From the human T2T-CHM13v2.0 reference genome, Homo sapiens: a stretch of 64,000 nt of DNA. Both the position numbers and the translations under genes were made by a program. Of the stretch, positions 49,050 to 51,153 are shown one piece after another (position 1 is the first letter of the stretch; each line of letters starts with the position of its first letter). The stretch lies in the NCBI RefSeq assembly GCF_009914755.1, contig NC_060947.1. One strand, written 5' to 3'. The notes beneath the pieces are model-generated. The model did no database searches. It was not told the DNA's origin and saw only the letters and a program-made list of their open reading frames with translations.

Positions 49050-49466
49050 ACTCTTTTTGGATTCTGAATAAAAGAGGTGTCCTTATCTATTCCAAACTAC
49101 CTTTTCTCCTGGAATCTTAATATGTAGGTCAGCTCTCTACCTGATTTCTAACATTTGCAGTTCTCACGTCTGGAGCCATTTGCCTCCCAGCTGCAGCCTC
49201 AACCATACTCCAAACCCTAGGCTAAATCTTTTTTTTTTTTTTTTTCTATGTGTCTCTTTCTCTTAGAAGCACCTGTGATTAAGTTTAGCACAATCAGAAT
49301 AATCTCCGTTTTGATAAACACAAAGTCAACAGATGAGTAACCTAATTTCATGAGTGATTTCCCAACACAGTCACACATTTTTTTTTCACTGAAGAGGAAA
49401 GTATGACACAGCAGGTGTGCAACAGACTGGTAATCCAGGGTATTATCTTAAAATGTTGCCTACCCA
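49050..49466 (-). mobile_element. Diverged MLT1 (MLT1E/F-like) LTR fragment
   Basis: cacctgtgattaag...ataatctccgttttgataaacacaaagtcaacagatgagtaacct...atcttaaaatgttgcctaccca. Confidence 0.55.
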
Positions 49467-49862
49467 CCTAAATAAACTTTTAAAATAGTCTTTCTGCTCC
49501 TTTTGTTATCTACATAAACAAAGATATTATCTGCAACTAATAATTAACTACTCTCCAGTTTCATTCATTACAAATATTAACTTACATCTTTTTTCTGGCT
49601 TAAATTATTTTTCCTGTATGTACCATTTTATACATTCACACACACATAAAACAATAAAAATATATCCAATTACTCAATGTTGGTTAAATTTTCATTAAAA
49701 TAAGTGTTAAAAATGATTATTTTTTTCTGTTTGAAGAGGGCTTTTATTGTTCTACTCAAGAGTGTTATTTCTGAAGACAAAGATGCCTGTGCTTTAATAG
49801 GCAGATTCTAGGGAGAATCTGAACCATAAGCCATAACATTTTACAGTAATAAATTCAAGACA

Positions 49863-50192
49863 CGCTGAATGTGGCAGGTCACACCTGTAATCCCATCACT
49901 TTGGGAGGCCGAGGTGGATGGATCATTTGAGATCAGGAATGCAAGACCAGCCTGGCCAACATGGTAAAACCCAGTCTCCACCAAAAATACAAAAAAAAAA
50001 AAAATTTAACTGGGCATGGTGGCACCTGCCTGTAGTCCCAGCTACTGGGAGGCTGAGGCAGGAGAATCACTTGAACCCAAAAGGTGGAGGTTGCAGTGAG
50101 CCAAGATCGTGCCATTGCACTCCAGCCTGGGCAACAGGAGTGAAACTCTGTCTCAAAAAAATAAAATAAAATAAAATAAAATAAAATGAATA
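49863..50192 (+). mobile_element. AluS with (TAAAA)n tail
   Basis: Dimeric Alu; TSD aattcaagaca. Confidence 0.94.
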
Positions 50193-50416
50193 AAGGAATT
50201 CAAGACAAAACAAAAAGTATAGATTTGCTTTCAGCATTTTTGAGGTGTTTAGTTTTCTATTAGTCAGCTTATTTATTTGTTTTGTTGCAATTATTGCTCT
50301 TTTTTTCTGAAAATATGTACAAACTCATACTCACACAAACACTCTCACTTAATACTTTTCTTACACCTAAGGTTTATCTTCAGAGTAATATGTGTATATT
50401 TAACTCTATGTAAATT

Positions 50417-50938
50417 TGAAGGGCTGGGTTGCCCCTCCACACCTGTGGGTGTTTCTCCTTAGGTGGAATGAGAGACTTGGAAAAGAAACAGACACAGAGA
50501 AAAAGTGTAGAGAAAGAAAAATGGGCCCAGGGGACCAGCGTTCAGCATAAGGGGGACCCGCGCCGGCCGCGGCCTCTGAGTTCCCTTAGTATTTGTTGAT
50601 CATTATCGGGCGTTTCCCGGAGAGGGGGATGTGGCAAGACAATAGGGTAATAGTGGAGAGAAGGTCAGTAAGAAAACGCGTGAACAAAGGTCTCTGCATC
50701 ATAAACAAGGTAAAGAAAAAAGTGCTGTGATTTTGATGTGCATATACATAAACATCTCAATGCATTAAAGAGCAGTATTGCTGCCAGCATGTCCCACCTC
50801 CAGCCCTAAGGCGGTTTTCCCCTATCTCAGTAGATGGAATATACAATTGGGCTTTACACTGAGACATTCCATTGCCCACGGATGAGCAGGAGACAGATGC
50901 CTTCCTCTTATCTCAACTGCAAAGAGGTCTTCCTCTTT
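50417..50938 (-). mobile_element. HERV-K(HML-2) LTR5 (5A/5B-like), 3' half only
   Basis: tgaagggctgggttgcccctccacacctgtggg is the LTR 3' terminus; ends at gagacagatgccttcctcttatctcaactgcaaagagg, abutting a poly(T). Confidence 0.92.
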
Positions 50939-51106
50939 CTTTTTTTTTTTTATGTGAAAAGAATTGTCATGTATTATTTATTCATTTAAAAGTAAAAGTT
51001 TATTGACAGTCTATAATCTTCTGTTCTCCAATAACATAAATAATCTTCTCTCATCCCAAACATGGAAATGGATGTTTCAACTTTCTCTGTACAGAAAAAA
51101 AATTTC

Positions 51107-51153
51107 TTTTTTTTTTTTTTTTAAGTATTTATTGATCATTCTTGGGTGTTTCT
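51107..51153 (-). mobile_element. Very 5'-truncated SVA (SINE-R) 3' end with poly(A)
   Basis: Minus strand reads AGAAACACCCAAGAATGATCAATAAATACTT followed by A16, the SVA/LTR5-type polyadenylated end. Confidence 0.8.

What the first reader, a model, noticed from the sequence alone, without database searches (positions are those of the whole stretch)
49050..51153. Nested, two-generation SVA-type 3' transduction
Seen on the minus strand in order: 30-bp SINE-R end with AATAAA, A16 (51107-51122), ~155 bp of unique DNA with AATAAA (plus-strand TTTATT at 50977-50982) 25 nt before a second A-run (50940-50951), the 3' half of an LTR5 starting at an A-rich site (AAAGAGGAAG), and >1 kb of further flank containing an Alu. 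The other half of the LTR is absent from the window. Established: SVAs often transduce 3' flanks. Inference: an SVA carrying a first transduction landed in an LTR5 elsewhere, and a read-through transcript from that locus was copied here and truncated almost to an orphan transduction. I could not find a convincing terminal poly(A)/TSD, so the left boundary (~49050 or the T-run near 49228) is unresolved.
Basis: partly seen in the sequence, partly recalled or inferred. Interest (0 to 1): 0.7.

Follow-up and report, generated by a model that had tools for sequence, protein, structure and literature searches.

The report
Three-chromosome SVA retrocopy, both donors gone
A 1.9-kb insertion in a COL4A6 intron joins the tip of an SVA jumping element to DNA copied from chromosomes 2 and 19, likely by two rounds of read-through copying from SVA parents that this genome no longer carries; this is a known process, and this is an old, clear example of it.

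Summary
On the minus strand, 51153-49229 reads: 31-bp SVA 3' tip, A16, 155 bp from chr2, A12, 1.69 kb from chr19 (3' half of an HML-2 LTR plus flank with an Alu), A17. A 4-bp candidate target duplication at a TT/AAGA site flanks it. The chr2 piece has one other copy (5 mismatches in 155); the chr19 piece is traced to one locus (49 in 1676). It is not there: the chr19 LTR is an intact 969-bp solo LTR, and the chr2 site also has no SVA. Best reading (about 0.8): nested 3' transduction, chr2 to chr19 to X, roughly 10-20 million years ago, from two SVA parents that were later lost from the human line. Main rival (about 0.15): one event that stitched three RNAs together. The sequence alone cannot separate these; ape genomes could. 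Concatenated SVA transductions and lost source elements are both in print, so this is a new member of a known kind.

The parts
51151..51154 (-). 5' copy of a candidate 4-bp target-site duplication (AAGA), preceded by TT; its last 3 bases overlap the SVA tip (microhomology)
   Evidence: upstream flank found only here in the genome search; the 8 SVAs examined have G, not A, at the base before the tip
51123..51153 (-). 31-bp 3' tip of an SVA (SINE-R end) with AATAAA at 51133-51128
   Evidence: 20 exact genome matches to tip plus A5, one being this locus; 8 of the other 19 examined for upstream context, all 8 are SVA ends
51107..51122 (-). A16, first poly(A) tract
50952..51106 (-). 155 bp copied from G000:C2:70260862-70261020, with AATAAA at 51004-50999 and 50982-50977; at the donor it ends 58 bp upstream of a tRNA-Gly(CCC) gene
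   Evidence: only other copy found; 5 mismatches in 155 and one 4-bp gap; tRNA
50940..50951 (-). A12, second poly(A) tract, 25 nt after AATAAA; not present at the chr2 donor
50417..50939 (-). positions 443-969 of the solo HML-2 (LTR5-type) LTR at G000:C19:20603846-20604814; its poly(A) hexamer is non-canonical in this copy and canonical in the donor
   Evidence: best non-self hit 96% against 93% or less for the other 38 scored copies
49246..50416 (-). chr19 downstream flank (to about G000:C19:20605970), beginning with the LTR's own 6-bp duplication and including an antisense Alu at about 49863-50195
   Evidence: the Alu is absent from 9 paralogous loci that gave a readout, of 10 tried
49229..49245 (-). 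A17, terminal A tract; the donor has only A5 here and no poly(A) hexamer in the 60 bases upstream
49227..49230 (-). 3' copy of the candidate 4-bp duplication (its first two A's merge with the tail)
   Evidence: no longer duplication at the junctions

Best explanation
The insertion is an SVA tip joined through A tracts to pieces of chr2 and chr19, likely made by two successive 3' read-through transductions from SVA parents that were later lost. Shown: the three pieces, their single donors, the A tracts absent from the donors, the direction of copying, and the empty donor sites. Inferred: (1) an SVA inserted at TT/GAAA on chr2, about 217 bp upstream of a tRNA-Gly gene; (2) its transcript ran past its own signal and was polyadenylated 155 nt downstream; (3) L1 proteins inserted that copy at GT/GAAA inside the chr19 solo LTR; (4) a transcript of this second SVA ran through 1.69 kb of LTR and flank; (5) it was reverse-transcribed into TT/AAGA on X and cut short 31 bp into the SVA; (6) both parents were polymorphic and were lost from the human line while the X copy stayed. 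Age is roughly 10-20 million years (calibration recalled). The copy is most likely inert.
For: Order and orientation match concatenated 3' transductions: SVA end, A tract, locus 1, A tract, locus 2, A tract. The chr2 piece is short and ends 25 nt after AATAAA, as a first downstream signal would give. Both pieces diverge equally from their donors, 2.9% (CI 2.2-3.9) and 3.2% (CI 1.1-7.4), fitting a short chain of events. X and the chr19 donor share 58 changes against paralogues, with 14 X-only, 22 donor-only and 4 unresolved in 1341 columns. All three junction sites are T followed by a purine run, compatible with the L1 endonuclease consensus (PMC3219598 passages). Prior: 27 concatenated events among 217 transduction-carrying SVAs, and 16% had no source SVA left (PMC12593883 sections 7 and 10). 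Lost ancestral SVA sources are described (PMC6139936 passages).
Against: Neither parent SVA exists in this genome, and no sibling copy was found. The last transcript must pass three earlier AATAAA plus three AATAAA and one ATTAAA in the chr19 donor, then end where no listed hexamer lies within 60 nt. The duplication is only 4 bp, below the typical 7-20 and below all 13 Alu duplications called here (8-18 bp); 3 of its 4 bases overlap the SVA and 2 overlap the tail. The T before each donor start is weak evidence: 8 of 13 Alu sites have it, but so do 67 of 117 background GAAA words not preceded by A. All four junctions read AAGA, which also suits the rival.
Confidence: 0.8

Rival explanations
1. 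One retrotransposition event joined three separate polyadenylated RNAs (chr19 RNA, chr2 RNA, SVA RNA) by two template switches, or by re-priming at the same X nick within one cell. No SVA ever sat at either donor.
For: Explains both empty donors and the lack of siblings without loss. All four junctions read AAGA, so each piece could join the same target end by 2-3 bases of microhomology. Same-orientation concatenation by template switching is reported in L1-expressing cells (PMC11702581 passages) and proposed once for an SVA (PMC12593883).
Against: GA right after the tail is common anyway: 5 of 10 SVA ends, 4 of 23 Alu tails. The SVA case in print was called a switch because no poly(A) separated the pieces; here A tracts do. 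It needs two unrelated RNAs ending at these sites, and no L1 or SVA driver was seen in 8.3 kb upstream on chr19 or 11 kb upstream on chr2. None of the 9 related loci that gave a readout at the chr19 end point, of 11 tried, has a poly(A) tail there. Two switches are needed.
Confidence: 0.15
2. Two independent insertions in different generations hit the same X site: first an orphan copy of the chr19 piece, later an SVA tip plus chr2 piece at its 5' end, flanked by AAGAAA.
For: AAGAAA occurs both at the 5' junction and after the A12 tract; the 5' junction recreates a TT/AAGA site.
Against: Needs two rare transduction-type insertions of about the same age at one base. The hexamer also follows the A16 tract and is mostly tail and microhomology. 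It still needs a lost SVA on chr2.
Confidence: 0.04
3. DNA-level duplication or an assembly error, not RNA copying.
For: The chr19 flank belongs to a much-duplicated segment with many paralogues on chr19 and chr7.
Against: Three A tracts absent from the donors, one placed 25 nt after AATAAA; about 3% divergence spread evenly with changes on both branches, which an assembly join would not give.
Confidence: 0.01

Closest known systems
Concatenated SVA 3' transductions (PMC12593883; sections 7 and 10 and passages read)
   Same: SVA end followed by sequence from more than one source locus; sources sometimes missing (16% of carriers); sizes within the reported 9 bp to 4 kb.
   Different: Those are young polymorphic human insertions. 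This one is about 3% diverged, keeps only 31 bp of SVA, and both parents are absent from this genome.
Orphan transductions (PMC12593883 passages; PMC12350158 passages: 48 orphans beside 878 transductions)
   Same: Extreme 5' truncation leaves almost only flank DNA.
   Different: A 31-bp SVA tip survives and names the driver, so it is not a true orphan.
Template-switch chimeras (SVA-CKS1BP in PMC12593883; complex insertions in PMC11702581; L1 chimeras in bioRxiv 10.1101/2025.02.02.635956; passages read)
   Same: Same-orientation pieces from different loci inside one insertion.
   Different: The SVA case lacks a poly(A) between pieces; here each piece ends in its own A tract.
HML-2 solo LTR (LTR5 family; subfamily label recalled, not tested against a library)
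   Same: 50417-50939 is 96% identical to the 3' half of a 969-bp solo LTR with a 6-bp duplication.
   Different: The X fragment is a passenger copied through RNA, not a retroviral integration; it has no 5' half.

Membership tests
SVA-mediated 3' transduction | SVA 3' end with AATAAA followed directly by poly(A) | tested here: met
   LTR copies continue with other sequence at this point
SVA-mediated 3' transduction | Downstream non-SVA DNA that maps to another locus and ends in a new A tract | tested here: met
SVA-mediated 3' transduction | Poly(A) signal near the end of each transduced piece | tested here: inconclusive
   met for chr2 (25 nt); no listed hexamer within 60 nt of the chr19 end, only a U/GU-rich stretch downstream
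SVA-mediated 3' transduction | Whole unit enclosed by one target-site duplication at an L1 endonuclease site | tested here: inconclusive
   4-bp candidate at TT/AAGA; no empty allele available
SVA-mediated 3' transduction | Source SVA directly upstream of the donor sequence (used to confirm; reported missing in 16% of cases) | tested here: inconclusive
   absent at both donors in this one haploid genome; ancestral, ape and other human alleles could not be examined
Concatenated (multi-generation) transduction | Pieces from two or more loci in series, each closed by an A tract, same orientation | tested here: met
Concatenated (multi-generation) transduction | Intermediate copy (SVA plus chr2 piece inside the chr19 LTR) recoverable | tested here: inconclusive
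   not in this genome: only 2 copies of the chr2 piece, junction pattern only on X, chr19 LTR intact; other genomes not available
Template-switch chimera | Donor pieces are 3' ends of independent RNAs, with no mobile element ever at the donors | not testable with these tools
   needs germline 3'-end data and ape orthologues
Hominid-specific insertion | Empty site in Old World monkeys and probably gibbon | not testable with these tools
   no primate genomes held; age rests on divergence only

The most novel reading that the evidence does not exclude
A single germline L1-driven event stitched three different polyadenylated RNAs (chr19, chr2, SVA) at one nick on X, re-using the same AAGA target end each time. 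Some 'concatenated transductions' with missing parents would then never have had parents at all.
Probability: 0.12. Interest if true: 0.6.

Novelty: new member of a known kind. Interest (0 to 1): 0.3.

Why it matters
If the best reading is right, one X locus records the exact positions of two SVA insertions that the human reference no longer carries, one about 217 bp from a tRNA gene and about 850 bp from a start codon recalled as TIA1's. That gives two base-level predictions to test in ape genomes, and shows that multi-step transduction, described in today's polymorphic SVAs, was already happening early in SVA history. Catalogues that start from annotated SVAs or need a surviving parent may miss such near-orphans. 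It also moved half an HML-2 LTR and five sense-strand AATAAA into a COL4A6 intron; no effect on the gene was shown. It does not change what is known about the mechanism.

Tried and rejected
Left boundary near 49050: rejected; the chr19 match ends at the 49229-49245 T-run and 48980-49240 is single-copy. Tip derived from an HML-2 LTR transcript: rejected; 8 of 8 examined matches are SVA ends. Siblings carrying a short chr2 piece: none; two near matches were ordinary SVA ends. An L1 or SVA driver further upstream of the donors: none seen; the L1 query was one L1 stretch from this window, so older L1 parts could be missed. The chr19 end as a shared natural 3' end of a gene family: no poly(A) at that point in related loci, and no KRAB or zinc-finger exon in the 16 kb examined; wider gene context on chr19 was not examined. 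Loss of the LTR poly(A) hexamer as the cause of read-through or as a sign of selection: not supported; the variant is in 3 of 31 LTR copies matching the pattern, the donor is canonical, and five other AATAAA remain. A first script for Alu target sites found only 2 sites and was replaced (13 calls from 46 full-length Alus, some probably false). SVA subfamily could not be assigned from 31 bp.

Full report
Observation. On the minus strand the order is: SVA tip 51153-51123, A16, 155 bp (51106-50952), A12, LTR half (50939-50417), flank with an antisense Alu (50416-49246), A17 (49245-49229). The annotation supplied with the task places the window inside a COL4A6 intron on the minus strand, so the insertion is sense to the gene.

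The tip. The tip plus five A's has 20 exact matches in the genome, one being this locus. I examined upstream context for 8 of the other 19; all 8 are SVA ends with VNTR-like and SINE-R sequence. HML-2 LTRs continue into other sequence at that point rather than into an A tract. The match begins at 51153; the flank beyond it was found only here.

Donor 1. The 155 bp have one other copy, G000:C2:70260862-70261020, with 5 mismatches in 155 and one 4-bp gap. The donor has no A tract at either end. The piece ends 25 nt after AATAAA and 58 bp upstream of a tRNA-Gly(CCC) gene on the same strand. About 850 bp from the start of the piece lies a start codon whose reading I recall as TIA1 (name from memory). 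There is no SVA at the start of the piece or in about 17 kb examined.

Donor 2. The LTR-flank junction occurs at one other place, G000:C19:20604712-20605040, and the flank match runs to the T-run. The chr19 LTR is the best non-self hit for the LTR half, 96% against 93% or less for the other 38 scored. It is a complete 969-bp solo LTR with a 6-bp duplication; the X copy starts at its position 443. Paralogous segments lack the LTR (3 of 8 gave a readout) and the Alu (9 of 10 gave a readout), so the donor and the direction of copying are certain. The donor LTR is not split by an SVA, and none was found in the 16 kb examined.

Ends. The donor has A5 where X has A17, no listed poly(A) hexamer in the 60 bases upstream, and a U/GU-rich stretch downstream. 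The tail is either from a weak site or from priming on the A5; I could not tell which. A 4-bp word, AAGA, sits at both ends after TT, and no longer duplication exists at the junctions. This fits the consensus nick site (PMC3219598, passages) but is shorter than the usual 7-20 bp and partly overlaps tip and tail, so it stays a candidate.

Age. X differs from chr19 at 49 of 1676 aligned bases (2.9%, CI 2.2-3.9) and from chr2 at 5 of 155 (3.2%, CI 1.1-7.4). Against paralogues, 14 changes are X-only, 22 donor-only, 4 unresolved and 58 shared in 1341 columns. From recall, human-gorilla and human-orangutan divergence are about 1.7% and 3.2%. With split dates of 10.6-10.9 and 18.2-19.6 Ma (PMC12058530, passages), the event falls at roughly 10-20 Ma, the period given for the older SVA subfamilies (PMC6139936, passages). 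Whether the copy is fixed in humans was not tested.

Mechanism. The simplest account is two rounds of 3' read-through: SVA on chr2, then a copy carrying 155 bp into the chr19 LTR, then a copy carrying both onto X, truncated 31 bp into the SVA. Both parents must have been lost. In print, 27 of 217 transduction-carrying polymorphic SVAs are concatenated, 16% have no recoverable source, and 24 of 55 sources are polymorphic (PMC12593883, sections 7 and 10). Lost ancestral sources are also described. Results against this reading: no parent and no sibling; read-through past six AATAAA and one ATTAAA; and the T before each donor start barely exceeds background, 8 of 13 Alu sites against 67 of 117 comparable words. 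All four junctions read AAGA, which suits a one-event chimera joined by microhomology, but GA follows the tail in 5 of 10 SVA ends and 4 of 23 Alu tails examined. Template switching is reported in cells (PMC11702581, passages) and for one SVA, where the argument was the absence of a separating poly(A). I put nested transduction at 0.8 and a one-event chimera at 0.15; these odds are judgement, not computed.

Known or new. The mechanism is known. I did not find this locus in print: searches were COL4A6 + SVA + transduction (11 listed), SVA + transduction + LTR5 + orphan (5), COL4A6 intron 2 breakpoints (5) and lost sources in great apes (1), judged by titles and abstract starts; bioRxiv 10.1101/2025.02.02.635956 has no COL4A6 in its main text. 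I read passages only of bioRxiv 10.1101/2021.07.12.451456 (55 high-confidence SVA 3' events in CHM13), PMC10681720, PMC12350158 and PMC4557859. I saw no supplementary tables and did not see Xing 2006, Damert 2009 or Ostertag 2003, so the locus may already be listed.

Verdict. A real, well-resolved composite retrocopy; new member of a known kind; interest 0.3.

Noticed in passing
window 51199-51519 (+): A full-length Alu with a long A tail and a 15-bp duplication (1 mismatch) sits about 45 bp beyond the 5' end of the insertion; it is a separate event.
   Followed up: partly
window about 59400-64000 (-): A broken L1 with ORF1- and ORF2-like frames of up to 409 residues (identification recalled). 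LINE-1 repeats in these introns are linked to COL4A5/COL4A6 deletions (PMC4557859, passages).
   Followed up: no
window 50583-50610; G000:C17:60158221; G000:C23:137652131: Three of 31 LTR copies matching the pattern share the same non-canonical poly(A) hexamer; the chrX:137.65 Mb copy is also the next-best LTR match after the donor. Recurrent change or conversion was not tested.
   Followed up: partly
L002 1372-1659 (G000:C2:70260733-70261020): The inferred first SVA site lies about 217 bp upstream of a tRNA-Gly(CCC) gene, next to a GC-rich promoter. Open chromatin could have made it active and selection could have removed it; untested.
   Followed up: no
L005-L012, L015-L022 (chr19 20.0-23.9 Mb, chr7 56-66 Mb): The chr19 flank is part of a segment with dozens of paralogues at 71-92% identity, in regions I recall as zinc-finger gene clusters.
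   Followed up: partly
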